This document shows positions 9,651 through 31,878 of a stretch of 64,000 nt of DNA, piece after piece (the stretch's first letter is position 1; each line of letters starts with the position of its first letter). The translations under genes and the position numbers were made by a program. The DNA is from Candidatus Parcubacteria bacterium. GTDB taxonomy: Bacteria > Patescibacteriota > Minisyncoccia > UBA6257 > HR35. A model generated the notes under the pieces. The model searched no databases. It was not told the origin of the DNA and saw only the letters and a list, made by a program, of their open reading frames with translations. The DNA lies in the NCBI GenBank assembly GCA_026004495.1, contig BPJG01000001.1, forward strand, positions 70,470 to 134,469. The letters are read 5' to 3'.

Positions 9651-9694
9651 TTTAATTAATTTTAAATTAAATTAAATGAATTTAAAAACTTAAT

Positions 9695-12674: not shown

Positions 12675-12684
12675 TAAATAAAAA

Positions 12685-14671: not shown

Positions 14672-14717
14672 AATTTTTTATATTTTTTTTATCTAAAATA
14701 GATAAAAAAACTAATTA

Positions 14718-15113
14718 TTAAGAATAGCTTATTTCTTTTATTTTCTTAATAATTTCTTCTAGACCTGACGATTTATAAATAATTCCTTTTAATCCTAAAG
14801 ATCTAACAAATTCATCATTTATTTCTTGACCATCATCTGTATATTTAAGGTTGGTAATAATAATAATATTAGGACATTTTGATCCCAGGTCTTTTTTAAG
14901 ATGAACCAAAAATTCTAATCCACTTATTTCCGGCATTGATATATCTAATAAAACTAAATCGGGTTTAATTTCAATTATTTTAAGTAAAGCTTCTTTGGGG
15001 TCATAAAAACATTCTATTTCGAAACCTTCTTTTTTTAGAGCAAAAGAAATTAAATCACAAAATGATTTTTCGTCATCAACTAATAATATTCTATAGGGCC
15101 TTTGTTCGGCCAT
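14718..15113 (-). CDS. Stand-alone response regulator receiver domain (CheY-like)
   Basis: ILLVDDEKSF...KPDLVLLDISMPEISG...IIIITN...K receiver motifs. 131 aa with no output domain. Confidence 0.85.
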   Translation of the reverse strand: MAEQRPYRILLVDDEKSFCDLISFALKKEGFEIECFYDPKEALLKIIEIKPDLVLLDISMPEISGLEFLVHLKKDLGSKCPNIIIITNLKYTDDGQEINDEFVRSLGLKGIIYKSSGLEEIIKKIKEISYS

Positions 15114-15271
15114 AAAAAAATTATAATTTATAATAGAAAAACAATTTAAACCTTTGTGGATAAATAATTAAATTTTAAATATTATTTTTTTTTAAAAAAA
15201 TTTAGTAGTAAAATATTATATTATTTGAAAAATAAGATTAAAGATTAAAAATTAAAAAATTATGGTTATTT

Positions 15272-17161: not shown

Positions 17162-18715
17162 CAAGCTAACAAAAAATTTACTTCCCCTACCTTCGCCTTC
17201 TGATTCGGCCCAAATTCTGCCTTGATGAGCTTCAACTAAATTTTTAACAATATAAAGACCTAAGCCAGTACCTCTAATTTCTTTTTTAATTGAAGGATCA
17301 CGAACAAATTCACCAAAAAGCTTACTTTGTAATTCTTTTGACATTCCAATTCCAGAATCACTAACACAAATTATTAATTCATTATTTTGTTTATAAACAC
17401 TTACCTTAACCCATCCTTGAGGAGTATATTTAATAGCATTATCAATTAAATTTTGTATGACTTGAGAAAATCTTAATTTATCAACTTTCAAAATTATTTG
17501 CTCAAGATTAGTTTCAAGACTTAGCTCTAAATTCTTTTCTTTGGCTAAAATAGTAAAATTATTTAAGATTTCTTTAATCAAACTAATAATTTCAACTTCC
17601 TCAAAATTAAGGTCCATTTTACCTTCTTCAATTCGTCGATAATCCATAAATTGTTCAATTAAAACCAAAAGCTTATCAACTGAATCTTTAATTTTTTTGG
17701 CAAAATCTTTTGCTTGTTCCGGCACATTTTCAATTCCATCAGCAATTAATTCAGCATAGCCTTTAACAACAGCCATCGGTGCTTTTACCTGATGCGACGC
17801 AAACGAAAGAAACTCCGATTTAATTCTATTTAATTTTTCCAATTTTTCTCTTAATTCAACTTCTTTTCTTACAGATTGTATAGTTATTAAAGAAACAATT
17901 AATATGAAAATAAATATTATTATTCTAATTAAAATTTCGATAAAATTAATGCTTATTAATATTTGGAATGCTGTTAAAATTAATAATATACTAATTAAAA
18001 TATCAATTAAAATAAATTTAATATTTAAGAATTGATAACGAACTATTGCTAAAAAAGTAAGTAAAATTAGGGGTATAGAATATAAAATACCAAATTGAAT
18101 ATATTTAGCGTTGCCAAATACATTAGGAAATATAAAATTAAAAATTATATGTAAGGTGAAAGTAACCAAAGCTCCGATAAATATTAAGATGGCGGAATAT
18201 TTTAGATTTGTCTCTTTAACAGAATAAATTTTTTTAATAAAACCAACAAAAAAGCTAATTAACAAACCTATTGTGGTTATACCAAATAATACTATACCAA
18301 TATTAGTTTTTACGCTTCCTATAGTGCCGTCAGGTTTAAATGAAATAATTTTTTCGAAAACTAACGGCGTTAATGTGAGTATCGAAACAAAAATAGTAAG
18401 TGGTAATAAAACATATTTAAAAGTTTTAGAATAATTAAAAGAAATATTAGGAAAAGCATAATACAAATTAAATATTGAGAAAGCGTACCAAATAGCAAAA
18501 AACATGTGTATCCTTAAAAAAATAAGTGCAAGGTTATTTAAATGCGGTTGATTGTATAAAAAATTGAAAATACCCCATAAAATAGTGCTTAGACTTAAGA
18601 GTAAATATGCAAAATTAGTAGCACCTTTTCTATTTTGGTTATAAATTATAAAACCTAATACTCCCATAGCACTAGCTACCCAACCTAAGATTATAAATAT
18701 GAAATTTTGGCTCAT
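17144..18715 (-). CDS. Sensor histidine kinase with polytopic N-terminal membrane domain
   Basis: SEFLSFASHQVKAPM (H-box), NLIDNAIKYT (N-box), DSGIGM, GTGLGLYIVK (G-boxes). About 9 N-terminal TM helices. The start overlaps the stop of the upstream methyltransferase gene (ATGA). Confidence 0.9.
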   Translation of the reverse strand: MSQNFIFIILGWVASAMGVLGFIIYNQNRKGATNFAYLLLSLSTILWGIFNFLYNQPHLNNLALIFLRIHMFFAIWYAFSIFNLYYAFPNISFNYSKTFKYVLLPLTIFVSILTLTPLVFEKIISFKPDGTIGSVKTNIGIVLFGITTIGLLISFFVGFIKKIYSVKETNLKYSAILIFIGALVTFTLHIIFNFIFPNVFGNAKYIQFGILYSIPLILLTFLAIVRYQFLNIKFILIDILISILLILTAFQILISINFIEILIRIIIFIFILIVSLITIQSVRKEVELREKLEKLNRIKSEFLSFASHQVKAPMAVVKGYAELIADGIENVPEQAKDFAKKIKDSVDKLLVLIEQFMDYRRIEEGKMDLNFEEVEIISLIKEILNNFTILAKEKNLELSLETNLEQIILKVDKLRFSQVIQNLIDNAIKYTPQGWVKVSVYKQNNELIICVSDSGIGMSKELQSKLFGEFVRDPSIKKEIRGTGLGLYIVKNLVEAHQGRIWAESEGEGRGSKFFVSLLIRDN

Positions 18716-19464
18716 TTCTTTATGATTATTAAAATATACCTTGATCTGAAAGTATTTTTTAGATCTTTAAAGTCAATACCTAAATTTTTATATTTTTCTT
18801 TAATTTTTCTAGTAAGTCTTCTAATAAAGAGATAATATTTCTTGATCCCGATTTTTTTTAAAATTTTTTTTATTTCTGATGGTAAATAAGCTGCTCGAGC
18901 TGAATAATAAATTAATTTTTTACTTAGATTATCAGGCGGTATAACCATTTTTAAAAGATAATAAGGTACATCTCTTCTTAAATCTTGAATATAAATTAAA
19001 CTATTTTGTTTTGTCACCCTTAGCATTTCTTTTATTGCTTTAGAAGTATTTTTAAATTGATGCAAACTATCTTTACACACAACAATGTCAAAATAATTAT
19101 TAGGAAAATTTAATTTATGAATATCATCTGAGATAAATTTTGTATTTTTGCAACCCTTACAGTTTTTCTTTGCCAATTGAAGTGCAAATTTAGTGTTGTC
19201 TATTCCGATAATTAAAGCATTTGGAAACCTTAAAGCAAGCTCTTTGCATAAAAACCCAGGACCACAACCTACATCAAGAATTTTAATTTTTTTATTGGTA
19301 TCTATTTTTGTTTTGGCAAATTCAATTAAATTATCAACAAGCGGAATTATCCACTTTTTATAATTTATTGTTGACATTTTCTCAAATTCTTTATGCTCAT
19401 TAATACCCATTTCTTTAGGTTCGGGAATCCTCTTTTTAAAAAATAGTTTTACTTTATTACCCAT
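18712..19464 (-). CDS. Class I SAM-dependent methyltransferase
   Basis: ILDVGCGPGFL (motif I) and FDIVVCKDSLHQF. Confidence 0.8.
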   Translation of the reverse strand: MGNKVKLFFKKRIPEPKEMGINEHKEFEKMSTINYKKWIIPLVDNLIEFAKTKIDTNKKIKILDVGCGPGFLCKELALRFPNALIIGIDNTKFALQLAKKNCKGCKNTKFISDDIHKLNFPNNYFDIVVCKDSLHQFKNTSKAIKEMLRVTKQNSLIYIQDLRRDVPYYLLKMVIPPDNLSKKLIYYSARAAYLPSEIKKILKKIGIKKYYLFIRRLTRKIKEKYKNLGIDFKDLKNTFRSRYILIIIKK

Positions 19465-20987
19465 TTTTGTTTAATACCTGCCTTAAAATAAATTGGATCT
19501 TCGTAGGGGTGAAGGAAAATTTCTGGTTCTAATTGTTTTTTATATTTTTCTGAAGCCGTTGAATAAAGATGATTATATTCTGTTGAATGTTTAATTAAGG
19601 AGTTTACTACTTCTTTTTTAATTCGTTCTTTTAATTTAAAAGCCGGTTTTATATTCTTTTTCATCTCTATATGAATATGCAATTTTTGATTGTAATTTTT
19701 ATCATAGACAACTTGCATTGTAAATTTACCTGTAATATATTTTTGTAGTTCTGATTTTAATAAAGCTTGTCTAATATATTCAGGATATAAAATAATTCCA
19801 AACAAGGATACAGTAAAGTCAGATCTTTCATAAACATATACGAATGGCAATTTAAGAATTTTATCTTTTATTTTCAACTTCTCAGATTCTTTAAAGATAT
19901 CGATGCCTACTTCTTTTAATCTTTTTATCATTTCATCAAAATAAATAACCCCTCCATAATCAGGGAAACTATATCTTAGAATAGGAATTGAATCTCCATG
20001 TCCCGAGGCCAAGATTAAGCCATCTTTTTCTTCAAACCAAACAATATAAGGATGGTATTGAGCTAAAGTAGGAGTTCTGGTAGCGTCTCTAAAGAGATTT
20101 CTAAAAACTTTATCTTTTTCAACAGCAATGTGCCTTATTAGGTTGGAAAAAGCTGTTTCATGTGCCATAGTTCCAAGTTCAACTGTACCATAAATATTGA
20201 TATTATCATTAAGCATATTTTCAAGATTGACCTTATTAGCGATATACTTTCTAAAGCTTTCAGGAAAGCTTTCAGCAGCATTTAAGATTCTTATTTTGAA
20301 TTTTTTAAATTGAACCCCGGCTGATACTGCTTCGTCGACTAAATCCTTGACAGAAGGAGGATAACCAACAAGAATTATTTGATCGTAATAAAATGATAGT
20401 TTTTGGAAAGTTTTTAATATTAATTCTTTATTTACTCCTATAGGAGCAACTGTTAATGGATATTTTTCGCTGAGTCTGTAGTAAACATAATAATTATGTA
20501 ACCCCCCAATCCATATACCTAATCCAAAGCTCAAAATAACTAAAGTATTAAATTTATTAATACCCCATTGATTTAAAAAGGCAGTTTCTAGTACATACAA
20601 TCCCTGTTCATCCAAATTTTCTCCTCTAATAAAATAAAAAGGCTCACCAGTAGAGCCCGAAGTTGCTGAAATTGTTGTTAGATTTAAATTTTCATTTGGA
20701 TAGAGTTGTTGATAAGGATATTGGCGAAGATAATTATTTTTATTCATAATTGGTAATTTAGCTAAGTCTCTAAAACCAGTAATTTCTCGATAATTAATTC
20801 CATTTTCTTTTAAGAATTGTTTATAAGCTGGTGTTGTTTCAATGGTAAATTTTACTAGTCTATCTATTTGTTTTTTGCCTAAATTCAACCAATAATCAGG
20901 TGGTCGTGTTTTTAATTCCTTCAATCTTTTATCTATGTTTTTGGGATATTTAAAATATATAAATTTTTTGTCCATTATGTTTCCCAT
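19449..20987 (-). CDS. Adenylate-forming enzyme, phenylacetate-CoA ligase / F390 synthetase (PaaK/CapK-like) family
   Basis: SATSGSTGEPFYF corresponds to the TSG(T/S)TG.P AMP-binding motif of the PaaK family. The size and C-terminal lid region are consistent with that family. Confidence 0.65.
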   Translation of the reverse strand: MGNIMDKKFIYFKYPKNIDKRLKELKTRPPDYWLNLGKKQIDRLVKFTIETTPAYKQFLKENGINYREITGFRDLAKLPIMNKNNYLRQYPYQQLYPNENLNLTTISATSGSTGEPFYFIRGENLDEQGLYVLETAFLNQWGINKFNTLVILSFGLGIWIGGLHNYYVYYRLSEKYPLTVAPIGVNKELILKTFQKLSFYYDQIILVGYPPSVKDLVDEAVSAGVQFKKFKIRILNAAESFPESFRKYIANKVNLENMLNDNINIYGTVELGTMAHETAFSNLIRHIAVEKDKVFRNLFRDATRTPTLAQYHPYIVWFEEKDGLILASGHGDSIPILRYSFPDYGGVIYFDEMIKRLKEVGIDIFKESEKLKIKDKILKLPFVYVYERSDFTVSLFGIILYPEYIRQALLKSELQKYITGKFTMQVVYDKNYNQKLHIHIEMKKNIKPAFKLKERIKKEVVNSLIKHSTEYNHLYSTASEKYKKQLEPEIFLHPYEDPIYFKAGIKQKWVIK

Positions 20988-22072
20988 TGTATAAAGGGTG
21001 GTTTTTTAACCGAGATGGCCGATGGTGGATCAGCTTTTCCTATTCTCATTACTGCGGTTAAAATATAATTATTTTTATCTACTTTAAATAATTCACATAA
21101 TTTTTGATAAGAATTATTAATAATGTTTAGCTCTTCTTCATTAAAAATATTTTTGTTTCCAAAATTAGCCTGTTGCCAAAAGAAAAATATTCCTGTAATT
21201 AGATGACAAGCTAAGTTTAACTTTGTAGCTCTAAGCCAAATATTTTCTATAAGCCTACCAAGATTTATAAATTCCTTATCATTATTAATAATAGAAAAAC
21301 CAATCATTGTGTTAGTAGCTGAATACATTTTAACTGTGTCTTTATAAATAGTTCTTACGATTCCTAATTTCTTCATTAATTTAAAGAAAGTAGTATTCCT
21401 TAAAAGTTTAATCATTAATATTTGAGGTGGTTTAAACTCCATTGTTTTGATATATAATCCCCTTTCTCCCTTTTGAGCTTTTTCTTTATCAAAAATGATC
21501 TCATTAAAAAGCAATTTTCTAAGATGGTCATTGTTAAAATTCAAATAAGTGTCATAAGCCAATAAACTGCCAATTTCATTTATTAAATCACCTTCAATTA
21601 TTGAAACCTTACAATTAGAGAAAAAATTAACTTCATTTAATAAATATTTTTTTTCTTCTTCTGTTAAGGCCTCTTTTTTGTAATGGTTTCTATTGGTTGT
21701 TCTTTTTTTAATATATTCATATAAGTCATCTTTCTCTTCAACGCCTGACTTTTCTAAAATAATTGAGGCTATGATATTATTTTCAAATTTCTCATTTATT
21801 GTTATTATGGGATTTAATTTATAATGCTTGGCTGTAATTACTATATTTTCAATTAAAGCCCCACAAGCAATTAAAGTACCTCTATTATTGTAATTTAATA
21901 TTGGATGATCTTTTTCTGGTAAATATCTTATTTTTATCGTATTTTGAGAAGCAATAAATTCCCATGGTTGAGAATTGCTTCCAGATGGAGCATTTAAGCT
22001 TTCTTTTAAAATATTTTCTATTAAAGATTTTTCAGGCATTTTTATTAATAATATTTTACAGCATATAATCAA
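20975..22072 (-). CDS. Double-domain nitroreductase-family protein
   Basis: NAPSGSNSQPWEF is the nitroreductase signature. A second lobe follows at about residues 200-365. The likely true start is MPEKSL at 22039. Confidence 0.7.
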   Translation of the reverse strand: MIICCKILLIKMPEKSLIENILKESLNAPSGSNSQPWEFIASQNTIKIRYLPEKDHPILNYNNRGTLIACGALIENIVITAKHYKLNPIITINEKFENNIIASIILEKSGVEEKDDLYEYIKKRTTNRNHYKKEALTEEEKKYLLNEVNFFSNCKVSIIEGDLINEIGSLLAYDTYLNFNNDHLRKLLFNEIIFDKEKAQKGERGLYIKTMEFKPPQILMIKLLRNTTFFKLMKKLGIVRTIYKDTVKMYSATNTMIGFSIINNDKEFINLGRLIENIWLRATKLNLACHLITGIFFFWQQANFGNKNIFNEEELNIINNSYQKLCELFKVDKNNYILTAVMRIGKADPPSAISVKKPPFIQWET

Positions 22073-22075
22073 TAT

Positions 22076-23188
22076 TTACAATTTTTTTAATTTTTTGAGG
22101 AAATATTTTTGTTGTTTTTTAAAATCTTTAGGTAAAATCGATAACATTTTATCAATATTTAATAAAATTCTTCCTTCTTTAATTTTTCCACCAAGAATAA
22201 TTTTTTTTGATAAATAAGAAACAGCTACACCGCATAAAGTTGCAGCATTACCTAATTGTGGCCAAGAATAAATTGTTTTTCCAACTTCTATTAATGAATA
22301 TAACATTCTTGGCGTTGCTAAATTAGCGCCTGCAATTTTGGCTGTAATCTTTATCATATCTTGAGGATTTAAATTTTTTAGATTTTCGGAAGATAAATTT
22401 CCCAAAAGACCATGAAGAATAGGATAATTAGGATTTAAATCGTATCTTTCGATGTCAATTAAAATATTATCGGCATGGTCTGTTGCCATAATTACAGGAA
22501 TTCTATATTTTTTAGCTTTCTCTCTTATTTTTATTTTGAGATAGAGATTATCCATTTCTTCAATTAAAACATCAATTTTAGGTTTAAGTAAAAAATTATC
22601 TATATTTTTATAAGTAATACCTTCTGAATAAATTTTCAAGCTTGCATAAGGATTTATTTCATAAATTTGTTGAGCACAATAAATTGCTTTATTAATTCCA
22701 ATCGACGAAATAGGATAACGTAATCTATTTAAATTAGATAAAGAAATTTCATCATTATCAGCTATTTTCATATATCTAGCTCCACCTATCATTGCGAGTG
22801 TTAAGGCTATATGAGAACCCACACTAAGACCTGCTATCCCTATTCTTGATTTATAAAACTTTATTTGTTCATCTTTGGTTAGAAGGTAAATATTTCTCGC
22901 AGTTTTAGTTTCAAAAAATTCTTTTTCATCTAAACAGTGAATTAATTTTTTATTCCAGGGGAAATATATCCATTTACCAACTTTATCTAATGTTTTATTT
23001 TTTAATTTTTTCTTTAAAAAATTTTCAAAATCTTGTTGATATTCTTTGATAAATTTATATTTAGGATTTTTAATTAAAAAATAATCTTCTAATTGTTTTT
23101 CGTAATTATCTATGATTTCTGATGGGTTTAATCTCTTTTTTAATAGCTCTAAACTTATATGATGAGCGTTAAAAATTAATGGCTTCAT
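22076..23188 (-). CDS. ThiF/E1-like adenylyltransferase with a roughly 110-aa N-terminal extension
   Basis: RIGIAGLSVGSHIALTLAMIGG...MKIADNDEISLSNLNRL (Rossmann motif plus the D.D....NL.R E1 motif). No CxxC zinc pairs were seen. Confidence 0.75.
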   Translation of the reverse strand: MKPLIFNAHHISLELLKKRLNPSEIIDNYEKQLEDYFLIKNPKYKFIKEYQQDFENFLKKKLKNKTLDKVGKWIYFPWNKKLIHCLDEKEFFETKTARNIYLLTKDEQIKFYKSRIGIAGLSVGSHIALTLAMIGGARYMKIADNDEISLSNLNRLRYPISSIGINKAIYCAQQIYEINPYASLKIYSEGITYKNIDNFLLKPKIDVLIEEMDNLYLKIKIREKAKKYRIPVIMATDHADNILIDIERYDLNPNYPILHGLLGNLSSENLKNLNPQDMIKITAKIAGANLATPRMLYSLIEVGKTIYSWPQLGNAATLCGVAVSYLSKKIILGGKIKEGRILLNIDKMLSILPKDFKKQQKYFLKKLKKL

Positions 23189-23658: not shown

Positions 23659-24723
23659 AGAAGTGATAGTCTGCTGTTTATAGAACTAGTAATTTCAAGA
23701 AGATGAGATAGAGTCATCCCATATCCGATAGAAGCAGAAACTGGTTTCTGGCTATTGTAATTGATCCCAAAAAGAAGTATTCTGCTGTCGATAAATTGTG
23801 TGGTAGTAAAATTGCTTCCGTGTATATTCTTTTGCCTACCCAGTTTTGTAGATGCCTCTCGACAAAAAATATATCAACGGCTAAAATTTATTGCTAAATT
23901 GAATAAAGCTCGTTGGCAATTGATGAAACCTTTTCATTTGGGTTTTTTATTTTGTGTAAAAACTCCTTGAAAACACCTCGCGCATTTGACTGATTGATTT
24001 CTAAATTTTTTAAGTAAGGGTATATTGCATTAAAAATACTAAGAAATTCTGAGTCAAACATTTGATCTATAACGCGGTCGCTCATGTTTGTACCAATTCA
24101 ATTATATCTCTCAAATGACCATTCGTCGTCTAGTTTTTCTAATGAGTCAGCAACCATGGCTTTTGCACCTGGAGGCGAAAATTTTTTTCATTTAGTTGCT
24201 TTACAGCTGGATCTTTGAATAACGGGTTAGGATAATTTAATGATTTTTCTCCGTTATGTTTAACGATAAATCTTTTCTCCTTGTAGATATCAAAGACCGA
24301 ACGAACGAATTCCTGATACAATTTGTTGTTTGTATTGAAGTAATTGTCGTAATCACAGCTTATCTGAATACTTTTCAAATCTTTCAGAATTACATCGCTA
24401 AAATAATTCAGAACGCTTATTGGTTCAGTAAATTTATACAAGTGACTTTTCGGGATCTTATAAAAATTGAAAATAAGATCTAATGTTCTTTGATCTGTAT
24501 CATTTAGTTTTCGTTTTTGTAGAAAATTTGATACTGCATTGGCAATTTTAAAAACGGTAGAACCGCTATAATGCATGCAAATTGGGAATCGAACAGAAAA
24601 TCCCTGTTTTCGTTTCCATCTAGCCCAAACGTCAGCCAATACAAAAATCCTTGCATGACTTAAACTCAGCGGGCACACCGGATGCATGTGAGCAATATCA
24701 ATAAAATATTTTTTATCTTCCAT
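23517..24723 (-). pseudogene. Class I aaRS-like (archaeal/eukaryal LeuRS-like N-terminus) gene, degenerate HIGH motif, broken downstream
   Basis: The 24139-24723 ORF reads FIDIAHMHPVCPLSLSHARIFVLADVWARWKRKQGFSVRFPICMHYSGSTV, matching P..sG.lH.GH.R.y...Dv.aR..R..G..V.FP...H.tG.p. Two in-frame TAG codons lie at 24139 and 24130. Frame changes follow, leaving pieces at 23894-24085 and 23517-23717. Confidence 0.5.
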
Positions 24724-24726
24724 AGC

Positions 24727-25341
24727 TTATATAAATAACGGTTTTATTTTTTCAAAAATTTTTCGGTGCCCAATTTCGTTAGGATGAATACCATCTTCGG
24801 AAAGCAACCCTAGATAATCAGACCTTAGCCATTCTTCAGCAATACTCAAAAAGGCGATATTCTTTTTTTTACACTCATCGCCAATGATCTTTTCATACGT
24901 TACGATTTTTTCATTCAAAAAATATACATTGTCCAATGGTGTTGTTTTTCGTTCGTCAACCGGGGTTAAACCAACGAAAATAATGTGATTGGTGTATTTA
25001 CTTGCGTTCTTAATGAGAAGTCTTATATTGTTTTTGAAGCCTTCTGCATTTGTAATAGGGTTGTCTATGGATTCGACGCATTTTGTATCGTTGATACCTA
25101 CTGCGAAAATGATAGAGGAATGATCGTCGGGATAAATTTTTCTACATCTTGCTTCAGCCTCAATTGGAAGTCGTTTAATAACTTCATTGGTTGATTCACC
25201 CGAGATGCTTAAATTATGGGTAAGAGTAAAATCTTTATCTTTTTTATCAAATTGTTGAATTAAAAGAGAGGGCCAAGATTTTATTTTTTCCACTTTTCTA
25301 CCCGCCGCTATGCTGTCTCCAAAAATTAGTATGTTGTACAT
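24727..25341 (-). CDS. SGNH/GDSL hydrolase
   Basis: ILIFGDSIAAG (block I), GINDT (block III), DGIHPNEIGH (block V). The gene is GC-richer than the genome background. Confidence 0.8.
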   Translation of the reverse strand: MYNILIFGDSIAAGRKVEKIKSWPSLLIQQFDKKDKDFTLTHNLSISGESTNEVIKRLPIEAEARCRKIYPDDHSSIIFAVGINDTKCVESIDNPITNAEGFKNNIRLLIKNASKYTNHIIFVGLTPVDERKTTPLDNVYFLNEKIVTYEKIIGDECKKKNIAFLSIAEEWLRSDYLGLLSEDGIHPNEIGHRKIFEKIKPLFI

Positions 25342-25412: not shown

Positions 25413-26177
25413 TTAAAAATCAATAAATTTAAAAAGGAAAGGGAAAGATGGTGATCCAAGAAATATAGAAGTGCGTAAGTCCTCAAATCGCACCCCTTTT
25501 TCATTACTTTGAATGATTAACTTATATTTTTTGAGGTTCCAATAAGTCTTTATAAAGTTTCTTATTGCTTCTCGTCTGATTTGTTCTATAATCTTTTCAT
25601 AATAATTATCTAGAAATAATTTCTTAAAATAAAATAAAGCGTAAAGATTATCAAGAAAATAATCTCGAGGATCATCCATAACCAAATTGTTTCTATTAAT
25701 CAAATATTTTTTAATTAACTTAATTTCTTCAACTTCAGGTAGAATTTTTATTTCATTAAAAATAATATTTAAAATCTCCCTAATATTTTTTAGATCACTG
25801 CTAAATTCTATATAAACATAACCAAAATTATTGCCAGCTAGATAAGATCCAGAATAAACATCATAAATCAGACCATTTTCTTGTCTTAAAATTTTAAATA
25901 ATCTACTATTTTGCGGACCAGCTAATGTATTTAAAATAACCCCTTGTAAAATTGAATTCTCAACCCCAGTTTTTCTACTAATAGAAGGAATAATTAGACT
26001 AACACTTATGGTTTTTAGGTTGTGGTTGTGATTAAAAGCAAAATTTTTATTAAACCAATCTTTAGAATTAATGTGGATATCAATAGCTTTGGGATTTTTC
26101 TCAATATTATCAAATTGTTTATTCAATATATTTTTTAATTTATTAATCTTAAAGCCCCCTGTTATTGCTAAAATCAA
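25413..26177 (-). pseudogene. M16 (insulinase/pitrilysin) peptidase C-terminal half only
   Basis: ILAITGGF...LGVILNTLAGPQNSRLFKILRQENGLIYDVYS matches the M16 inactive-domain pattern. The ORF starts at a TTG, with an in-frame TAG 6 codons upstream (26196-26198). No catalytic HxxEH half is present. Confidence 0.6.
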
Positions 26178-26493: not shown

Positions 26494-26867
26494 TCATTTT
26501 TTTATTAATCTTTTTATTATTTTTAGGGGCCTAAAATTTCTACTTATTTCTTCAAAATTTTTTTTACATATATCTCTATTATCTTTTGGGTAGTTACAAA
26601 GATAAATATCTAAAGTAAGGTAATTCAATTCAGGCCAAGTATGAATAGTAATGTGAGATTCAACCAAGCTAATCGGATCAGTGAAACCACCAGCAGAAAA
26701 TTTATAATAAAAGGATCCTAATTCGTGTATATTATATTTTTTAACAATGTTGTGAATGTATTTTTTCGTTTGATTTAAAGATTTCAGTTCTTCAACTTCT
26801 TTTGTGGTAATTTCTCCTAATATATGAAGTCTGGTAAATGGTCCGTTCTTGTTTTATTCATACACAT
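26494..26867 (-). pseudogene. S-adenosylmethionine decarboxylase (SpeH-type) paralog, start region out of frame
   Basis: The translation LGEITTKEVEELKSLNQ...FSAGGFTDPISLVESHITIHTWPELNYLTLDIYLCN contains the ESH..IHTWPE pyruvoyl-enzyme motif. This frame has no ATG, GTG or TTG. The upstream ATGs at 26861 and 26867 are in another frame. A TA-dinucleotide slip at about 26821-26826 would join them. Confidence 0.6.
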
Positions 26868-26885: not shown

Positions 26886-27920
26886 CTAATGTGTTCCTTT
26901 TTCTACAATTTCAAAAAGGTTTTTTGAGCAATCAATTACGGCCTTAACACCTAATGGTATTGTAAGTATAGGATCAGTATGGCCTATATCAACATTAGCA
27001 AGAATTGGAAATTTATAACCAGTAGTTCTTATTTTAACTAATCTTATGGCTTCTTTTTTTTCTTTATCAGAATAACCAAAAAACCTTCCAATTATCATTC
27101 CTTTGACTTTTTTAAAAATACCAGATAACTCAAGATCAGTTAAATAAGAATCTATATTTTCTATTCTTTCTCCTCTTGTAAAGTCATTATCACTCTCTGG
27201 TATCTCCCAAAAAAGAATTTTGTTAGTAAAATCAGGCCAATATTTTGTCCCTCTTAAATGCATCATTGAAGTAATACAGCCACCCAAAATTGGTCCTTCT
27301 ACTTTACCTTGTTTTAACCATTGCCAACCTTTGTTCTTTTTCATTTTTCTTGGTCTTCTTAGATCTTCTTTTTTAAACCAATCAAGAATTTCATAGGTCC
27401 AACAAGAAGAAGGCTTAATCACACCGATAGGTTTGTCTTCCATTAATGCTTTTTTAAAATATTCTTCAGTATAAGGGAGTATTCTTGGGTTTTCTGCAAA
27501 TTGAGTAAGAGCTGCTGGCCCATAAAATGTTATTAAATTTGCCTGGGTATAAAACGCAAAATGTAAAACTGTAGCGTCGGAATAACCAACAAAAATTTTT
27601 GGGTTTTTCTTTATGAGATTAAAATCTAAATATTTTAAAACTTGATTAGAGTGATTTCCTCCTATAAAACAAATTATTGCTTTAACTTCTTTATCTTTAA
27701 AAAATAAATTAATATCTTCTGCTCTTTCCTTAGGCGAACCGGCAGTATAACCAGTAATATTTAAAGCATTTTTACCAATTTTAACTTTAAATCCCATATT
27801 GTTTAACATTTTAATAGCTCTTTTTGTTCTGTGTGGTACTAAACCAGCAAGTGGGGCTGATGGACTTATTAATCCGATTGTATCTCCTAATTTAAGTTTT
27901 GGTGGTTTAATTAATTTCAT
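26886..27920 (-). CDS. S66 serine peptidase (LD-carboxypeptidase LdcA / microcin C7 immunity MccF family)
   Basis: LKLGDTIGLISPSAP, VGYSDATVLH (nucleophile Ser), DIGHTDPILTIPLG (catalytic His). Confidence 0.85.
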   Translation of the reverse strand: MKLIKPPKLKLGDTIGLISPSAPLAGLVPHRTKRAIKMLNNMGFKVKIGKNALNITGYTAGSPKERAEDINLFFKDKEVKAIICFIGGNHSNQVLKYLDFNLIKKNPKIFVGYSDATVLHFAFYTQANLITFYGPAALTQFAENPRILPYTEEYFKKALMEDKPIGVIKPSSCWTYEILDWFKKEDLRRPRKMKKNKGWQWLKQGKVEGPILGGCITSMMHLRGTKYWPDFTNKILFWEIPESDNDFTRGERIENIDSYLTDLELSGIFKKVKGMIIGRFFGYSDKEKKEAIRLVKIRTTGYKFPILANVDIGHTDPILTIPLGVKAVIDCSKNLFEIVEKGTH

Positions 27921-27933
27921 ACCTATTTTAAAG

Positions 27934-28227
27934 CTATTGGAAAATTATGGATGAATTTGACCCTCTACACATAGGAATGGTTTTGTTTCCCAGATAAAAG
28001 GTAATTTTAAAATTACCTGGATAAATCTTTCTATCCCCATTCCCCAACCGCAGTGAATTTTTTGTTTTTTTACTACTCTTGAATCGATATATGGTTGATA
28101 ATCTGTATAACATAGCCCCTTTATATATAACAAAATCTTTGTCTTTAATAATATCTAAAATTACTCCTCTTAATTCATTGTAGGCTATATCAGTGCAGTC
28201 AGTTATAAAAACAATTCGCTTTTTCAT
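27934..28227 (-). pseudogene. Mosaic remnant: short N-terminal piece plus class II aaRS (Asp/Asn/Lys-type) motif-3 C-terminal fragment in another frame
   Basis: Frame A reads MKKRIVFITDCTDIAYNELRGVILDIIKD.... Frame B (27945-28133) reads ...YTDYQPYIDSRVVKKQKIHCGWGMGIERFIQVILKLPFIWETKPF, resembling the class IIb ending ...H.G.G.G.eR......g...Ir....FP. Confidence 0.45.
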
Positions 28228-28229
28228 AA

Positions 28230-29027
28230 TTAAATTAAATTTAAATTAATTATTCGTTTTTTATCAAAAAGTTTTTTAAAATCGTGTCCAATCTTGTCCA
28301 TCAAAAAAACTTTTGCTTTAGAACATTTTGTTCTTTGAAAAAAAATAGAACTGGTGTAGTTAATTGTTTCATCTGATTTACCGTGAAATATAATGATGTT
28401 AGGGTAATTTTTATCCATTTTGATAAAAGAGTCAGCCTCCTTGCCGGAAAAATATTTATCCCAACATTTATTTTCTATTCCCCTGAAAGCAAATTTATAA
28501 CCTCTTCTAAGAAATTCGAGGAAAGATATATTGAATTCATAAAATGCTTCTATATTTTTTGGGTTTTCTAGATATGCTAAAACCTCTTTTTTATGTAAAA
28601 ATAGTAAAGGAGCAAATAATAAAACATTCTTTACATCATTTTTGGATACTTTTGCAGAGATAACCGGATTACCAGCAAAACTGTAACCAATTAAATGTAG
28701 ATTTTTGTAATTCCAATATATCTCTTTATTGTCAAAAGTTTTTATCCCTTTTTTCTTTTTTACGAACTCAACTGCTAATTCTACAGTTTTTTTGCAGTTC
28801 TTATAGGTAAAACTGCCTCCACTTAACCAGCTTCCCAGATAATAAACGCTGAAGAAAGCAGTTTTTTTATCTACCTTATCAATAAAAAAATCTTTATCGA
28901 TTATTTGCGGTAACCCAGGGAAATAAATAAAAATATTTTCGACATTTACCTTGCCATTGTTAAAACTATCTTTTGTATAGTAGAAATGCAGTGCTACATT
29001 TTTATAGATAAAAAGTTCTAATTCCAT
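28230..29027 (-). CDS. Alpha/beta hydrolase
   Basis: HLIGYSFAG is a GxSxG-like nucleophile elbow. IIIFHGKSDE and GHDF are consistent with the acid and His positions. Confidence 0.6.
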   Translation of the reverse strand: MELELFIYKNVALHFYYTKDSFNNGKVNVENIFIYFPGLPQIIDKDFFIDKVDKKTAFFSVYYLGSWLSGGSFTYKNCKKTVELAVEFVKKKKGIKTFDNKEIYWNYKNLHLIGYSFAGNPVISAKVSKNDVKNVLLFAPLLFLHKKEVLAYLENPKNIEAFYEFNISFLEFLRRGYKFAFRGIENKCWDKYFSGKEADSFIKMDKNYPNIIIFHGKSDETINYTSSIFFQRTKCSKAKVFLMDKIGHDFKKLFDKKRIINLNLI

Positions 29028-30041
29028 ATTTTTTTAAGCTAATAAATATTTTTCCCTTTACCGCATCGATAATAATTTTTTTATTTCTATAGTTATCAAT
29101 TTTTCCTTTGATTATTTTTGATTCTACAAGACAAAAAATATTAAACTCTCTCGCTATGACTGCTATGTGTAAAAGAATGCCTCCAGTTATTATTAATCCA
29201 TTAATAAATGGAATTTTTTTAATCAACGAAATGTCCAGATTGCGTTTTACTAAAACAATATCATTTTATATTTATTTTATCATAATCTTCAATGTTTTTA
29301 ATTATTTTTAAAAATCAACTTGCGATACCCTTGTAAGCAATATTTCCTGTTCCTATGATTTTACTTTTGTCAAAAGTATAATTTATAATTTGGGGATATT
29401 TGTTCAGAGTTGTAATATTTCTACTTTGGAAAATATAAATTTCCTTACCGTCCCATCCCCATTCAATATCTAAGTATTCCCAAATATACCTTCAAGATTT
29501 AATGCTATCTTTGACAATTTTTTCAAAAATTTAGATTTCAGGTTATTTATTTTGGCTTTTTCAATTACCTTGATAATTGGTTTTTTATGACAACTAACAA
29601 CAGAATCTCCCAAGTCTTGGGTATATTCTACAATCATCTTATTGATATTTTGATTAAATGGATCGGCAGTAAATATCACTCCCGCAACACCTACGGGAAT
29701 CAATTCTTGAATGGCAATAGCCATACTTTCAAATTCCAGTCTGATATCATTTATTCGCGCGTATATTTTAGCATTATCACTAAATAAAGATCGATAACAT
29801 AATATAATTGCCTTTATAATATTTTCTTCCCCTTTTATATTTAAGAAGCTTGAATATTGACCAGCAAAGCTGAAAAAAGGGGGGATCCTCTACCCACACT
29901 TTTCTTTGATTATTTTTATTTTTTTGGATTTAGTTCCTACTTCTAAATTATCATAATCTTCTATAAGTTTTATATTATGGTAAATGAAATGTTTATCACA
30001 CATTAGCTTTAAAACCTCTTCTTTTAAAAAGTTCCTTTCAT
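29002..30041 (-). pseudogene. PEP synthase / PEP-utilising (rifampin-phosphotransferase-like) gene, multiply frameshifted
   Basis: The pieces, in order, are ...YDNLEVGTKSKKIKIIKEKCG*, MAIAIQELIPVGVAGVIFTADPFN...DLGDSVVS (ATP-grasp part, 29470-29724), DIEWGWDGKEIYIFQSRNIT, and GLIITGGILLHIAVIAREFNIFCLV (swivel phosphohistidine domain, 29002-29226). They lie in different frames. Confidence 0.65.
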
Positions 30042-30073
30042 CTTGGATTAATCAAATATTATTTTATAGGTCC

Positions 30074-30163
30074 TTATTTTTCCCAACGATAAATAGTAAT
30101 ATATCTAACATTAAGTAATTTCGCTATTTCAATTGTGGTCAAATAAACGTTCTTATTTTTCAT
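30074..30163 (-). pseudogene. Excisionase/AlpA-type helix-turn-helix stub (29 aa)
   Basis: MKNKNVYLTTIEIAKLLNVRYITIYRWEK* resembles the excisionase-family HTH (..lT..E.A..Lgvs..TiYrw...). It ends prematurely. Confidence 0.4.
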
Positions 30164-31308: not shown

Positions 31309-31878
31309 ATGTATATTTCTCAGGGTAGATTTTGTTATATTGAAGAACTAACAACAGCCAATGATAAAGAATTATTTGAATTAATGAAAGAAAATGAAGA
31401 AGAGTATAGAAATTTAATTAGTGATCAACCCCTACCTCAAACTTATGAAGAATTTCGGGAAACATTGAAAACTTGGTTTACTCATGGAAGAAATTTTCAG
31501 TTTTTAGTCAGAAAAAGAGAAGGAGACAAAGTTATAGGTACTTTTTTCTTTTATTTTTGGGATCAAGAAAATAAAACAACTAAAATATCAGCCTATTTTA
31601 TTCCTGAAGTAAGAAAGACACCATTAATTGAAGAAGCATTAGGATTAGCTTTGATGTTTGCTTATAAAATAATGCATGTAGAAAAAGTAGAATTTTATGT
31701 TTATAGAGAAAACACTGAAATGCTTAACTTAGTTAAAAAATATAAGATTAATAAAGTATGTGAATCTCAAAGCGAAGTTAATCCTGAAAGAACATTAATA
31801 AACTTAGAAATCTCAAAAGAACAATTACAAGAAATATATAAAAAATTAAGAAGATTTTATGAGAGAAAGATAAGGTAA
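31309..31878 (+). CDS. GNAT N-acetyltransferase (RimJ/RimL-like, Acetyltransf_3)
   Basis: The layout ...FLVRKREGDKVIGTFFFYFWDQENKTTKISAYFIPEVRKTPLIEEALGLALMFAYKIMHVEKVEFYVYRENTEMLNLVKKY fits the RimL-type GNAT core. Confidence 0.6.
   Translation: MYISQGRFCYIEELTTANDKELFELMKENEEEYRNLISDQPLPQTYEEFRETLKTWFTHGRNFQFLVRKREGDKVIGTFFFYFWDQENKTTKISAYFIPEVRKTPLIEEALGLALMFAYKIMHVEKVEFYVYRENTEMLNLVKKYKINKVCESQSEVNPERTLINLEISKEQLQEIYKKLRRFYERKIR

What the first reader, a model, noticed from the sequence alone, without database searches (positions are those of the whole stretch)
26886..28227. S66 MccF/LdcA-type peptidase adjacent to aaRS-like remnants and near a RimL-type GNAT: possible aminoacyl-nucleotide antibiotic immunity module
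The intact S66 peptidase (nucleophile GYSDAT, His in DIGHTD) sits immediately next to a class IIb aaRS C-terminal stub (HCGWGMGIERF...). It lies 2 kb from a LeuRS-like paralog with a degenerate HIGH motif and 3.4 kb from a RimL-like GNAT (31309-31878). A ThiF-like adenylating enzyme, methyltransferases and SAM decarboxylase genes are also nearby.

In microcin C-type systems these functions are all represented. MccF (S66) and the MccE C-terminal RimL-like GNAT give immunity against the processed aminoacyl-adenylate mimic. MccB is a ThiF-like enzyme. MccD and the MccE N-terminal domain install an aminopropyl group using SAM chemistry. Extra or variant aaRS copies are a common self-resistance device for aaRS-targeting antibiotics.

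The co-location may be coincidence, since LdcA is also a housekeeping murein-recycling enzyme.
Basis: inference. Interest (0 to 1): 0.5.

Follow-up and report, generated by a model that had tools for sequence, protein, structure and literature searches.

The report
Orphan MccF-type peptidase from decayed cluster
An intact MccF-type peptidase gene sits beside the wreck of a gene cluster, built from tRNA-synthetase-like enzymes, that many ultra-small CPR bacteria and DPANN archaea keep intact; the cluster shares its parts with known pathways for antibiotics that mimic aminoacyl-adenylates, so the peptidase is probably a surviving resistance gene.

Summary
ORF 26886-27920(-) is an intact 344-aa S66 peptidase. 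By sequence, loop content and predicted fold it belongs to the MccF clade, not to LdcA.

The adjacent "aaRS stub" is the last ~56 codons of a truncated AsnRS-like gene (AsnL). In relatives, AsnL is intact and lies immediately upstream of the S66 gene.

Across about 60 non-redundant CPR/DPANN loci the recurrent set is: AsnL -> S66 -> [SAM decarboxylase] -> SAM-transferase(s) <- two truncated AlaRS-like genes.

- One transferase type (MTa) is a full-length homologue of MccD (microcin C) and AgnB1 (agrocin 84).
- The S66 protein's nearest cluster-borne relatives are AgnC5 and MccF.
- AsnL-like + MccD-like (+S66, + extra LeuRS or AlaRS) sets also occur on plasmids of Xenorhabdus, Exiguobacterium and Streptomyces.

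In this window the cluster has decayed. About 85% of AsnL is deleted, the SAM decarboxylase is frameshifted just after its ATG, and the transferase and AlaRS-like genes are absent. Only the peptidase survives.

The RimL-type GNAT, the LeuRS-like ORF and the ThiF (as an MccB analogue) are not supported as parts of the module.

Best reading: an orphan immunity or resistance amidase against an aminoacyl-nucleotide compound. The function is inferred, not shown.

The parts
26886..27920 (-). Intact S66 serine peptidase of the MccF clade, 344 aa. Catalytic residues Ser114, His314 and Glu239. Adenine-stacking Trp181 sits on the MccF-type loop.
   Evidence: Pfam S66 N- and C-terminal domains. PDB phmmer gives MccF-type chains at 1e-62 to 1e-51 over the full length, against true LdcA at 1e-9 to 1e-20 over part. 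Alignment to E. coli MccF. NJ tree and loop alignment. AlphaFold model pLDDT 90.7; Foldseek TM 0.84-0.92 to MccF family against 0.68-0.76 to LdcA. dN/dS 0.12-0.18 against 81%-identical orthologues.
27945..28115 (-). 3' remnant (about 56 codons plus stop) of the truncated AsnRS-like gene (AsnL) that precedes the S66 gene in relatives. It retains class II motif 3 (GWGMGIER). The 5' ~310 codons are deleted, with the junction near 28104.
   Evidence: tblastn of intact AsnL from L026 and L005: residues 313-367 and 318-369, 71-75% identity. blastn 78-80% over 160-169 nt, with homology ending at about 28104. NCBIfam AsnA/AsnRS C-terminal matches.
27934..28227 (-). 97-aa ORF spanning the deletion junction. 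Probably not a real gene: its 3' half is the AsnL remnant read in another frame, and its first ~40 codons have no homologue in related loci.
   Evidence: (no Pfam family).
26494..26859 (-). Cluster-type pyruvoyl SAM decarboxylase (AdoMet_dc) directly downstream of the S66 gene. The body is conserved (67% identity to orthologues; the ESH processing site is kept), but the ATG at 26857-26859 is one nucleotide out of frame with it. This is a recent frameshift pseudogene, or less likely a sequencing error or slippage site.
   Evidence: Pfam and NCBIfam matches on the 57-aa ORF. tblastn over residues 3-112 of 122. Translations and nucleotide comparison with L033. dN/dS 0.11.
19449..23188 (-). Neighbouring module: Rv1355c-type ThiF (22076-23188), nitroreductase (20975-22072) and a 512-aa ORF here called PaaK-like (19449-20987). 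It is an occasional neighbour of the AsnL-S66 cluster, not an MccB equivalent.
   Evidence: NCBIfam NF005901 3.5e-97 for the ThiF. Pfam Nitroreductase for the second gene. For the 512-aa ORF the only hit is a weak AMP-binding_C_2 match below the cutoff (1.4e-4, 22.5 bits against 25). Homologues sit next to the cluster only in L005 and L052. ThiF against MccB: E = 0.003 over 63 aa.
24139..24723 (-). 194-aa LeuRS-derived mini-ORF (archaeal-type LeuRS residues ~31-176; the HIGH motif has degenerated to SLSH). Tested and not part of the conserved S66 cluster.
   Evidence: NCBIfam PRK12300 1.6e-26. Only 8 homologues, all 121-308 aa. It lies next to a GDSL hydrolase in L113, and next to an unidentified partial upstream gene in L112, but not next to an S66 gene in either. 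dN/dS 0.10. No homologue near S66 in the 80 metagenome loci or in L002-L029.
31309..31878 (+). RimJ/RimL-type GNAT. Tested and not part of the conserved module.
   Evidence: Pfam Acetyltransf_3 1.4e-9. No homologue near S66 in any related locus. No BLAST hit to E. coli MccE.

Best explanation
The S66 gene encodes a cytoplasmic MccF-type serine amidase. It is the surviving member of a conserved CPR/DPANN operon:

AsnL (AsnRS catalytic core without the anticodon-binding domain) -> S66 -> [pyruvoyl SAM decarboxylase] -> SAM-dependent transferase(s), one type homologous to MccD/AgnB1 <- two truncated AlaRS-like proteins.

By analogy with agrocin 84 (AgnA, AgnB1, AgnC5), microcin C (MccD plus a decarboxylase, MccF) and ascamycin (AcmD, AcmF), the intact operon most likely does three things. 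It makes an aminoacyl-nucleotide, that is an aminoacyl-adenylate mimic. It decorates that compound using SAM chemistry. It uses the S66 enzyme to cut the aminoacyl-nucleotide amide bond so that the producer is not poisoned.

In this genome the biosynthetic partners are gone: AsnL is deleted to a stub, the decarboxylase is frameshifted, and the transferase and AlaRS-like genes are absent. The peptidase is kept under purifying selection. It therefore now acts as an orphan resistance or detoxification gene against such compounds made by neighbours.

Shown: clade and fold membership, catalytic and adenine-binding residues, conserved synteny, homology of the partners, and the decay state.
Inferred: the substrate, the product of the intact operon, and the immunity role.
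For: MccF clade rather than LdcA:
- PDB phmmer gives 1e-62 to 1e-51 over the full length to B. anthracis, E. coli and Listeria MccF-type chains, and only 1e-9 to 1e-20 over part to LdcA.
- NCBIfam LdcA equivalog scores 99.9 bits against a cutoff of 378.
- E. coli LdcA is 23% identical and lacks the ~35-residue loop.
- Foldseek places 33 MccF-family chains (TM 0.84-0.92) ahead of every LdcA chain (TM 0.68-0.76).

Residues:
- Ser118, His311, Glu243 and the adenine-stacking Trp186 of E. coli MccF align to Ser114, His314, Glu239 and Trp181. All but Ser114 are invariant in 40 CPR sequences; Ser114 is kept in at least 90%. The role of W186 is taken from PMC8323819.

Synteny:
- Intact AsnL lies immediately upstream in L005, L006-9, L011, L026, L027 and L029, and as a partial gene in L028.
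- In 61 non-redundant metagenome loci, AsnL is within 6 kb in 36/55 and immediately upstream in 24/48. A methyltransferase is downstream in 25/50. AdoMet_dc is immediately downstream in 16/50. AlaRS-like genes are present in 16/32.
- De novo ORF clustering finds only these five families recurrent.
- At least 35 of the top 120 S66 clusters share a contig length with one of the top 120 AsnL clusters.

Homology to known pathways:
- MTa against AgnB1: 32%, about 1e-48 over the full length. MTa against MccD: 26-34%, 1e-28 to 1e-31.
- S66 against AgnC5: 37%, 1e-74. S66 against MccF: 34%.
- AsnL against AgnA: 28-35%, 1e-28 to 1e-48, with class II motifs 2 and 3 intact.
- AsnL-like and MccD-like genes are adjacent on plasmids of six genera.
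- Xenorhabdus has AsnL-MT-S66 plus an extra leuS and an MFS transporter. Streptomyces has AsnL-MT...S66. Exiguobacterium has an AlaRS-related gene, MT and AsnL plus an extra AlaRS.
- One CPR lineage pairs the S66 gene with a HIT hydrolase, the MccH type of microcin C resistance (PMC8323819).

Decay with S66 retained:
-. dN/dS of S66 is 0.12-0.18.
- The same state, an AsnL stub beside an intact S66 gene, occurs in L059. Frameshifted AsnL genes occur in L035, L041, L051 and L079.
Against: - There is no biochemical data for any member of this clade.
- No exporter and no conserved additional resistance gene is part of the CPR cluster. That is unusual for an antibiotic cluster.
- The main CPR AsnL type is about as similar to canonical AsnRS (131-139 bits) as to the AgnA clade (103-127 bits). 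Only a minor AsnL type (L027) is sister to AgnA.
- About a third of CPR S66 genes occur without any cluster partner. The enzyme may therefore have a general housekeeping role.
- The MccF residues that read the acidic side chain (N220, K247; PDB 3tly title) are not conserved here: Thr217, and an 8-residue insertion with Glu251. The substrate is therefore not processed microcin C itself.
- The role of AgnC5 in the agn cluster is itself unproven.
- AlaL1 scores above the NCBIfam alaS cutoff (467 against 457 bits). It could be a working, perhaps the only, AlaRS.
Confidence: 0.55

Rival explanations
1. This is a housekeeping metabolic or quality-control operon rather than an antibiotic cluster. AsnL would be an AsnA-type asparagine synthetase or another amino-acid ligase. 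AlaL1 and AlaL2 would be a minimal or split AlaRS. The S66 enzyme (and HIT in one lineage) would clear mis-made aminoacyl-adenylates or N-aminoacyl by-products, or recycle a small aminoacylated metabolite or polyamine conjugate. The window has simply lost a dispensable pathway and kept a generally useful hydrolase.
For: - AsnL matches archaeal AsnA models at 1e-35 to 1e-45, and plasmid homologues are annotated "asparagine synthetase A".
- AlaL1 passes the alaS cutoff and aligns with the active N-terminal AlaRS fragment structures.
- The cluster is very widespread and well conserved in organisms with tiny genomes.
- There is no exporter.
- S66 genes often stand alone.
Against: - AsnL fails both the AsnA and the AsnRS equivalog cutoffs (121-195 bits against 309-414).
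- The cluster sits in different genomic contexts, is shared at 76-78% identity between CPR and DPANN bins, and decays repeatedly. That pattern suits accessory, transferable genes better than core metabolism.
- The specific MccD/AgnB1-type transferase and the AgnC5/MccF-like peptidase have known relatives only in aaRS-inhibitor clusters.
Confidence: 0.27
2. The S66 protein is an ordinary LD-carboxypeptidase for peptidoglycan peptide turnover (LdcA or YkfA-like), and its neighbours are unrelated.
For: - S66 is the LD-carboxypeptidase family, and source annotations call it muramoyltetrapeptide carboxypeptidase.
- The window also encodes a peptidoglycan hydrolase (M23 + Amidase_2, 8232-9650).
- The natural substrates of most stand-alone MccF-clade proteins are unknown (PMC8323819).
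Against: - It fails the LdcA equivalog cutoff.
- It is 23% identical to E. coli LdcA and carries the MccF loop with the adenine-stacking Trp, which LdcA lacks.
- The fold search ranks all MccF chains above all LdcA chains.
- According to the review, LdcA cannot protect E. coli against McC-like compounds (PMC8323819), so the two clades differ in function.
- Tight, conserved operon linkage to aaRS-like genes (intergenic gaps of about 0-40 bp) in about 65% of loci is not expected for a murein enzyme.
Confidence: 0.1
3. This is a microcin C-type (mcc) system: ThiF = MccB, GNAT = MccE C-terminal domain, S66 = MccF, and SAM enzymes = MccD plus the MccE N-terminal domain.
For: All of these functional classes exist within about 12 kb. 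MccD-like transferases do belong to the conserved cluster in relatives.
Against: - The ThiF belongs to the Rv1355c family and has a partner nitroreductase. Its match to MccB is E = 0.003 over 63 aa, and it has no CxxC motif. That MccB binds zinc through CxxC motifs is from memory.
- tblastn of MccB, MccD and MccE finds nothing in the window at 1e-3.
- The GNAT is never near the S66 gene in relatives.
- No MccC-like exporter is present. A precursor peptide was not searched for.
Confidence: 0.03

Closest known systems
Agrocin 84 (agn) cluster of pAgK84 and agn-like plasmid clusters (Xenorhabdus bovienii, Streptomyces, Exiguobacterium)
   Same: - Three shared gene families: a truncated AsnRS homologue without the anticodon domain (AgnA / AsnL), a MccD-like class I SAM transferase (AgnB1 / MTa, 32% identity over the full length), and an MccF-like S66 peptidase (AgnC5, 37% identical to the window protein).
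- An extra aaRS copy sits in the cluster: LeuRS in agn and Xenorhabdus, AlaRS in Exiguobacterium, AlaRS-like genes in CPR.
   Different: - The CPR cluster has only five recurrent families. It lacks the agnC1-C7, agnD and agnE genes and any exporter.
- Its main AsnL type is not inside the AgnA clade.
- It adds a pyruvoyl SAM decarboxylase and a pair of truncated AlaRS-like genes.
- The window keeps only the peptidase, a stub and a frameshifted decarboxylase.
E. coli microcin C immunity peptidase MccF (and B. anthracis / Listeria MccF-clade enzymes)
   Same: S66 fold with TM about 0.9. Ser-His-Glu triad. Loop with the adenine-stacking Trp (W186 aligns to W181). Same length of 344 aa. 34-36% identity.
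   Different: - The side-chain specificity residues N220 and K247 are replaced (Thr217; an 8-residue insertion; Glu251), so a different aminoacyl moiety is expected.
- There are no mccA, mccB or mccC genes.
- Relatives pair the gene with aaRS-like enzymes instead of a ThiF-type MccB.
Ascamycin pathway: AcmD (AlaRS-like charging enzyme), AcmF (truncated AlaRS-like, Ala-tRNA-dependent transferase), AcmE (hydrolase that removes the alanyl group)
   Same: In intact relatives there is a pair of AlaRS-like proteins. One is close to canonical AlaRS (AlaL1). The other is truncated and diverged (AlaL2, 28% identical to AlaL1). A hydrolase able to remove an aminoacyl group from a nucleoside derivative accompanies them (PMC12945691).
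   Different: - Both CPR proteins are truncated to the aminoacylation and tRNA-recognition part.
- AlaL2 keeps the Asn and Asp positions that AcmF has changed (read by eye).
- The hydrolase is an S66 enzyme, not an alpha/beta hydrolase.
- No sulfamate or halogenation genes are present.
- None of these genes is present in the window.
LdcA (murein tetrapeptide LD-carboxypeptidase)
   Same: Same MEROPS/Pfam family S66 and the same catalytic triad.
   Different: 23% identity. LdcA lacks the ~35-residue substrate loop. The window protein fails the NCBIfam equivalog cutoff. TM is lower, at 0.68-0.76.

Membership tests
Peptidase family S66 (Pfam PF02016 + PF17676) | Both S66 domains above the gathering score; Ser-His-Glu triad | tested here: met
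   138.6 and 100.3 bits against cutoffs of 25 and 23.7. Ser114, His314 and Glu239 align with S118, H311 and E243 of MccF.
MccF clade of S66 | Closer in sequence and fold to MccF-type enzymes than to LdcA | tested here: met
   phmmer 1e-62 to 1e-51 against 1e-9 to 1e-20. NJ tree. Foldseek TM 0.84-0.92 against 0.68-0.76.
MccF clade of S66 | Extra loop next to the active site carrying the Trp that stacks on adenine (W186 in E. coli MccF) | tested here: met
   The loop has the same length as in MccF and AgnC5 and is absent from E. coli LdcA. Trp181 is invariant in 9 diverse and in 40 CPR sequences. The role of W186 comes from PMC8323819 and the title of PDB 3tlz.
MccF clade of S66 | Residues that select an acidic aminoacyl side chain (N220, K247 of E. 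coli MccF) | tested here: not met
   N220 aligns to Thr217. The K247 region holds an 8-residue insertion, and K247 aligns to Glu251, although the alignment is uncertain there. That these two residues matter is inferred from the title of PDB 3tly and from memory of Agarwal et al. 2012.
MccF clade of S66 | Hydrolysis of the carboxamide bond of aminoacyl- or peptidyl-nucleotides; protection against McC-like compounds | not testable with these tools
   Needs enzyme assays or resistance assays.
LdcA (NCBIfam NF008424 equivalog) | Score above the curated equivalog cutoff | tested here: not met
   99.9 bits against a cutoff of 378.
Microcin C (mcc) gene cluster | MccB-type ThiF adenylyltransferase acting on an MccA precursor peptide | tested here: not met
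   The window ThiF belongs to the Rv1355c family (3.5e-97) and has an adjacent nitroreductase. Its match to MccB is E = 0.003 over 63 aa. tblastn of MccB finds nothing at 1e-3. An MccA-like ORF was not searched for.
Microcin C (mcc) gene cluster | MccE C-terminal RimL-type acetyltransferase linked to the cluster | tested here: not met
   The GNAT 31309-31878 is of the Acetyltransf_3 type. It has no BLAST similarity to MccE and no homologue near the S66 gene in the related loci examined.
Microcin C (mcc) gene cluster | MccD-type SAM transferase plus a decarboxylase (aminopropyl decoration) | tested here: inconclusive
   Relatives carry AdoMet_dc followed by a full-length MccD/AgnB1 homologue. 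The window has only the frameshifted decarboxylase and no MccD-type gene. The chemistry is untested.
Agrocin 84-like (agn) cluster | AgnA-type truncated AsnRS homologue (catalytic core, no anticodon-binding domain) | tested here: inconclusive
   The window has only the last ~56 codons. Relatives have intact genes of about 368 aa with motifs 2 and 3, 28-35% identical to AgnA. The main CPR type lies outside the AgnA clade.
Agrocin 84-like (agn) cluster | AgnC5-type MccF-like peptidase | tested here: met
   37% identity, 1e-74. AgnC5 is the nearest cluster-borne relative in the tree.
Agrocin 84-like (agn) cluster | Resistant extra copy of the target aaRS (AgnB2 LeuRS) and an exporter (AgnG) | tested here: not met
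   The window has only a 194-aa LeuRS-derived ORF with a degenerate HIGH motif, and it is not linked to the S66 gene elsewhere. No exporter family recurs in 67 loci. Relatives carry AlaRS-like genes that might play the aaRS role. This is untested.

The most novel reading that the evidence does not exclude
Ultra-small CPR bacteria and DPANN archaea widely share a compact five-family operon that has not been described. It would make an aminoacyl-adenylate-mimicking toxin, probably aimed at AlaRS given the paired AlaRS-like genes, and would protect the producer with an MccF-type amidase. It would be a hybrid of the agrocin 84, microcin C and ascamycin logics built almost entirely from aaRS paralogues. 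Episymbionts might use it against hosts or competitors. Genomes such as this one would then be "cheaters" that dropped production and kept immunity.
Probability: 0.35. Interest if true: 0.8.

Novelty: new variant of a known kind. Interest (0 to 1): 0.62.

Why it matters
CPR and DPANN organisms have minimal genomes and are thought to carry few secondary-metabolite pathways. A conserved, horizontally shared cluster for an aaRS-targeting nucleotide compound would change that picture. It would give these episymbionts a chemical weapon, or a shield against one.

It would also extend the very small family of natural aminoacyl-adenylate mimics (microcin C, agrocin 84, albomycin, ascamycin). And it would provide a new set of aaRS-derived biosynthetic enzymes and an MccF-type resistance enzyme with a different side-chain specificity.

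For this window specifically, the analysis explains why an intact peptidase sits among gene debris: an immunity gene has outlived its cluster.

The held literature shows no paper that links Patescibacteria or DPANN with microcin C or agrocin.

Tried and rejected
- **mcc reading of the neighbourhood.** tblastn of E. coli MccB, MccD and MccE against the window gave no hit at 1e-3. ThiF against MccB gave only E = 0.003, and the GNAT against MccE gave nothing. Rejected.
- **GNAT, LeuRS fragment, GDSL, M16 fragment and alpha/beta hydrolase as conserved neighbours.** Screened by tblastn against L002-L029 and 80 metagenome loci, then by de novo clustering of 67 loci. None recurs, apart from one weak hit to the alpha/beta hydrolase in L049.
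- **LeuRS fragment as a relic of a resistant LeuRS (AgnB2-like).** Its only 8 homologues are all short. In L113 it sits beside a GDSL hydrolase, and its dN/dS is 0.10. It is a separate conserved mini-protein. I could not link it to the cluster, although agn and Xenorhabdus clusters do carry LeuRS genes.
- **Genome-contig scan with the single protein.** It returned only 5 close loci. The alignment-based metagenome scan was needed.
- **Primary MccF papers.** Agarwal 2012, Nocek 2012 and Tikhonov 2010 are not held. Residue roles rest on the review, on PDB entry titles and on memory.
- **Promoter and terminator scan around the S66 gene.** No signal above the shuffled expectation.
- **N-terminus of the 97-aa ORF (MKKRIVFITDCTD...YNELRGVI).** By eye it resembles the start of SAM hydroxide adenosyltransferase (DUF62) proteins. 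There is no significant Pfam or BLAST support. Not pursued.
- **Not checked.** Whether the rest of the 634-kb genome holds the transferase or AlaRS-like genes, or a canonical AlaRS. Only the window was available.
Full report
**Source and setting.** The window is about 24% G+C. The S66 protein is identical to an NCBI entry from a Candidatus Parcubacteria MAG, on a 634-kb contig. A neighbouring protein is named KatS3mg094_089. An independently assembled Logan contig is 100% identical over 8 kb.

Immediately upstream, 27945-28115(-) encodes ...YQPYIDSRVVKKQKIHCGWGMGIERFIQVILKLPFIWETKPF.... This is not a chance resemblance to class II motif 3.
- It is 71-75% identical to the last ~55 residues of intact ~368-aa AsnRS-like proteins that precede the S66 gene in related contigs.
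- The DNA is 78-80% identical over 160-169 nt.
- Homology stops near 28104, so about 85% of that gene has been deleted.

Directly downstream of the S66 gene, 26494-26859 is a SAM decarboxylase paralogue, 67% identical to the gene that follows S66 in relatives. Its ATG is one nucleotide out of frame with the conserved body. A low historical dN/dS of 0.11 suggests the frameshift is recent. A second, intact decarboxylase lies at 56385-56753.

- phmmer against the PDB gives full-length matches of 1e-62 to 1e-51 to B. anthracis, E. coli and Listeria MccF-type proteins. True LdcA chains give only partial matches of 1e-9 to 1e-20.
- The NCBIfam LdcA equivalog scores 99.9 bits against a cutoff of 378.
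- In an alignment with E. coli MccF, the triad (S118, H311, E243) and the adenine-stacking Trp186 map to Ser114, His314, Glu239 and Trp181. Trp181, His314 and Glu239 are invariant in 40 CPR sequences, and Ser114 is kept in at least 90%.
- E. coli LdcA is 23% identical and lacks the ~35-residue loop that carries this Trp.
- An AlphaFold model (pLDDT 90.7) matches 33 MccF-family chains (TM 0.84-0.92) before the first LdcA chain (TM 0.68-0.76).
- The residues that MccF uses for the acidic side chain (N220, K247) are not conserved. The natural substrate is therefore probably not an aspartyl derivative.

**Conserved synteny.** Gene tables for contigs carrying close homologues (63-82% identity) show a repeated arrangement. 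A ~368-aa tRNA-synt_2 protein is followed within a few bases by the S66 gene. Then comes AdoMet_dc and/or one or two class I methyltransferases. Then come two convergent tRNA-synt_2c genes.

The flanking genes differ from locus to locus (LepA and SAICAR synthase; IF-2 and RbfA; enolase; pilus genes). The block therefore moves as a unit.

A scan of metagenome contigs gave 80 loci, 61 of them non-redundant at 95% S66 identity.
- AsnL is within 6 kb in 36 of 55 informative loci.
- AsnL is immediately upstream in 24 of 48.
- A methyltransferase is downstream in 25 of 50.
- AdoMet_dc is immediately downstream in 16 of 50.
- AlaRS-like genes are present in 16 of 32.

Unsupervised clustering of all ORFs from 67 loci recovered only these five recurrent families and no exporter.

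Variants keep the theme:
- AlaL2-AlaL1-S66 (L101, L102).
- S66-AsnL-MT-S66 (L070, L096).
- S66 beside two distant class IIb genes (L085, L086, L097).
- HIT-S66 (L002, L012, L042, L043).

Labelled members come from Parcubacteria/Paceibacterota, Nealsonbacteria and Berkelbacteria. Others, at 76-78% identity, come from Pacearchaeota and Aenigmatarchaeota bins.

**What the partners are.**
- **AsnL** aligns with the catalytic core of AsnRS (residues ~115-450) and lacks the anticodon-binding domain. It keeps class II motifs 2 and 3. It fails both the AsnRS and the archaeal AsnA equivalog cutoffs.
- **AlaL2** (408 aa) is a diverged paralogue, about 28% identical to AlaL1, with changes in several active-site blocks.
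- **MTa**, the methyltransferase that follows AdoMet_dc, is a full-length homologue of AgnB1 (32%, about 1e-48) and of E. coli MccD (26-34%, 1e-28 to 1e-31). The other cluster methyltransferases show only generic similarity.

**Comparison with known systems.** In pAgK84 the agn cluster encodes four relevant proteins.
- AgnA is a truncated AsnRS homologue proposed to make the nucleotide-amide bond.
- AgnB1 is a SAM-dependent enzyme.
- AgnB2 is the resistant LeuRS.
- AgnC5 is an MccF-like protein, 37% identical to the window protein.

tblastn against 72,556 plasmids shows MTa-like and AsnL-like genes side by side in Exiguobacterium, Peribacillus, B. pseudomycoides, Xenorhabdus bovienii, Streptomyces and pAgK84. 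The annotated loci read as follows:
- Xenorhabdus: AsnL-MT-S66 ... leuS - aaRS-related - MFS.
- Streptomyces: AsnL-MT ... ProRS-like - S66.
- Exiguobacterium: AlaRS-related - MT - AsnL ... AlaRS.

In microcin C, MccD plus a decarboxylase install the aminopropyl group. MccF, MccE2 and, in another producer, the HIT enzyme MccH give immunity. In ascamycin, a canonical-like AlaRS (AcmD) and a truncated AlaRS-like transferase (AcmF) add alanine to a nucleoside sulfamate, and a hydrolase removes it.

The CPR operon thus combines parts known from three aaRS-inhibitor pathways. There is a caveat. In a crude NJ tree the main CPR AsnL type forms its own clade, about equally distant from canonical AsnRS and from the AgnA clade. 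Only the L027-type AsnL is sister to AgnA.

**What does not belong.**
- *GNAT.* It has no homologue near any related S66 gene and no similarity to MccE.
- *ThiF.* It is an Rv1355c-type enzyme with a partner nitroreductase and a 512-aa ORF here called PaaK-like, whose only family hit is a weak AMP-binding_C_2 match below the cutoff. Homologues sit beside the cluster only in L005 and L052. In L005 they are joined by an MvdD-type ATP-grasp and a 52-aa ORF, so this looks like a separate, possibly peptide-modifying, module. It is not MccB-like.
- *LeuRS-like ORF.* It corresponds to residues ~31-176 of archaeal-type LeuRS, with HIGH degenerated to SLSH. It has only eight homologues, all short, lies next to a GDSL hydrolase in L113, and shows a dN/dS of 0.10. 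It is a conserved mini-protein of unknown role, not a fresh pseudogene and not a cluster member.
- *Other debris.* The M16 C-terminal fragment and the PEP-utilising-enzyme fragments show that 23-31 kb is a zone of gene decay.

**Interpretation.** The intact peptidase (dN/dS 0.12-0.18) next to a deleted AsnL and a frameshifted decarboxylase shows that its usefulness does not depend on its operon partners. The same state occurs in L059, and frameshifted AsnL genes occur in L035, L041, L051 and L079.

That pattern fits a detoxifying or immunity enzyme retained after loss of production. It fits a dedicated biosynthetic step less well. I put about 0.55 on the immunity-relic model, about 0.27 on a non-antibiotic metabolic or quality-control role for the operon, about 0.1 on plain murein LD-carboxypeptidase, and very little on a true mcc system.

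All functional statements are inferences from homology and synteny. The absence of an exporter, the frequent solo S66 genes and the near-canonical AlaL1 are the main reasons for caution.

**Novelty.** No paper in the held library links Patescibacteria, CPR or DPANN with MccF, microcin C or agrocin. The 2021 review that mined agn-like clusters reports them only in Ensifer and Actinobacteria. I therefore rate this as a new variant of a known kind. For the window itself it is a decayed relic.

Noticed in passing
window 17144-23188 (- strand); L005 1-6765; L052 2919-5503: A module of Rv1355c-type ThiF, nitroreductase and a 512-aa ORF called PaaK-like here (its only family hit is a weak AMP-binding_C_2 match below the cutoff), plus a methyltransferase and a histidine kinase, lies beside the AsnL-S66 cluster in three loci. 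In L005 it also includes an MvdD-type ATP-grasp, a TPR protein and a 52-aa ORF (MNTKELIPL...DMDYDSD). It may be a separate peptide-modifying (RiPP-like) cluster.
   Followed up: partly
window 24139-24723 (-) with 24727-25341 (-); L112 503-1081; L113 4575-5707: A 192-194-aa protein derived from the N-terminus of archaeal-type LeuRS, with the HIGH motif degenerated to SLSH. It is conserved at 70-85% identity in a handful of metagenomes (dN/dS 0.10). In L113 it lies just downstream of a GDSL hydrolase, as in the window; the partial upstream gene in L112 was not identified. Function unknown.
   Followed up: partly
L113 56-2577: On the contig carrying a homologue of the LeuRS-like ORF, a truncated class I aaRS-like gene (tRNA-synt_1c, 356 aa) sits next to a Peptidase_S51 gene (the MccG/PepE type, which also cleaves processed microcin C) and an AdoMet synthase fragment. 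This is another pairing of an aaRS-like gene with an aminoacyl-nucleotide peptidase.
   Followed up: no
L011 (Pacearchaeota), L014 (Aenigmatarchaeota); P0200, P0208: S66 and AsnL proteins from DPANN archaeal bins are 76-78% (S66) and 57-69% (AsnL) identical to the CPR bacterial versions. This suggests recent inter-domain transfer of the gene pair, or mis-binning.
   Followed up: no
window 29002-30100 (-): A PEP-utilising enzyme (PPDK_N plus the phospho-histidine mobile domain) is broken by several stop codons: ...SFAGQYSSFLNIKG...TGGILLHIAVIAREF.... It is a pseudogene next to the cluster relic.
   Followed up: partly
window 25413-26177 (-): A 254-aa ORF holds only the inactive C-terminal domain of an M16 peptidase, and it has a TTG start. 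It is probably another truncated gene in the 23-31 kb decay zone.
   Followed up: no
window 28230-29027 (-): A 265-aa ORF with no Pfam or NCBIfam family. By eye it has a GxSxG-like nucleophile elbow (IGYSFAG) and downstream Asp and His motifs, so it is probably an alpha/beta hydrolase. It abuts the AsnL deletion junction. One weak homologue (28%) lies upstream of the cluster in L049.
   Followed up: partly
L070 499-4637; L096 3-4012: Two S66 paralogues flank an AsnL gene and an MT gene in the same operon. One is about 68% identical to a CPR S66 reference; the second matches only at 44%.
   Followed up: no
window 56385-56753 (-): A second, intact SAM decarboxylase (122 aa). It is only 32-40% identical to the cluster-type copy, so it is presumably the housekeeping enzyme.
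   Followed up: partly
L115 (Xenorhabdus bovienii CS03 megaplasmid 9472-20675): A compact agn-like cluster: AsnL-like, MccD-like MT, S66, nucleoside phosphorylase, VOC, GloA, an extra leuS, an aaRS-related protein and an MFS transporter. It looks like an uncharacterised agrocin 84-type LeuRS-inhibitor locus in an insect-pathogen symbiont.
   Followed up: partly
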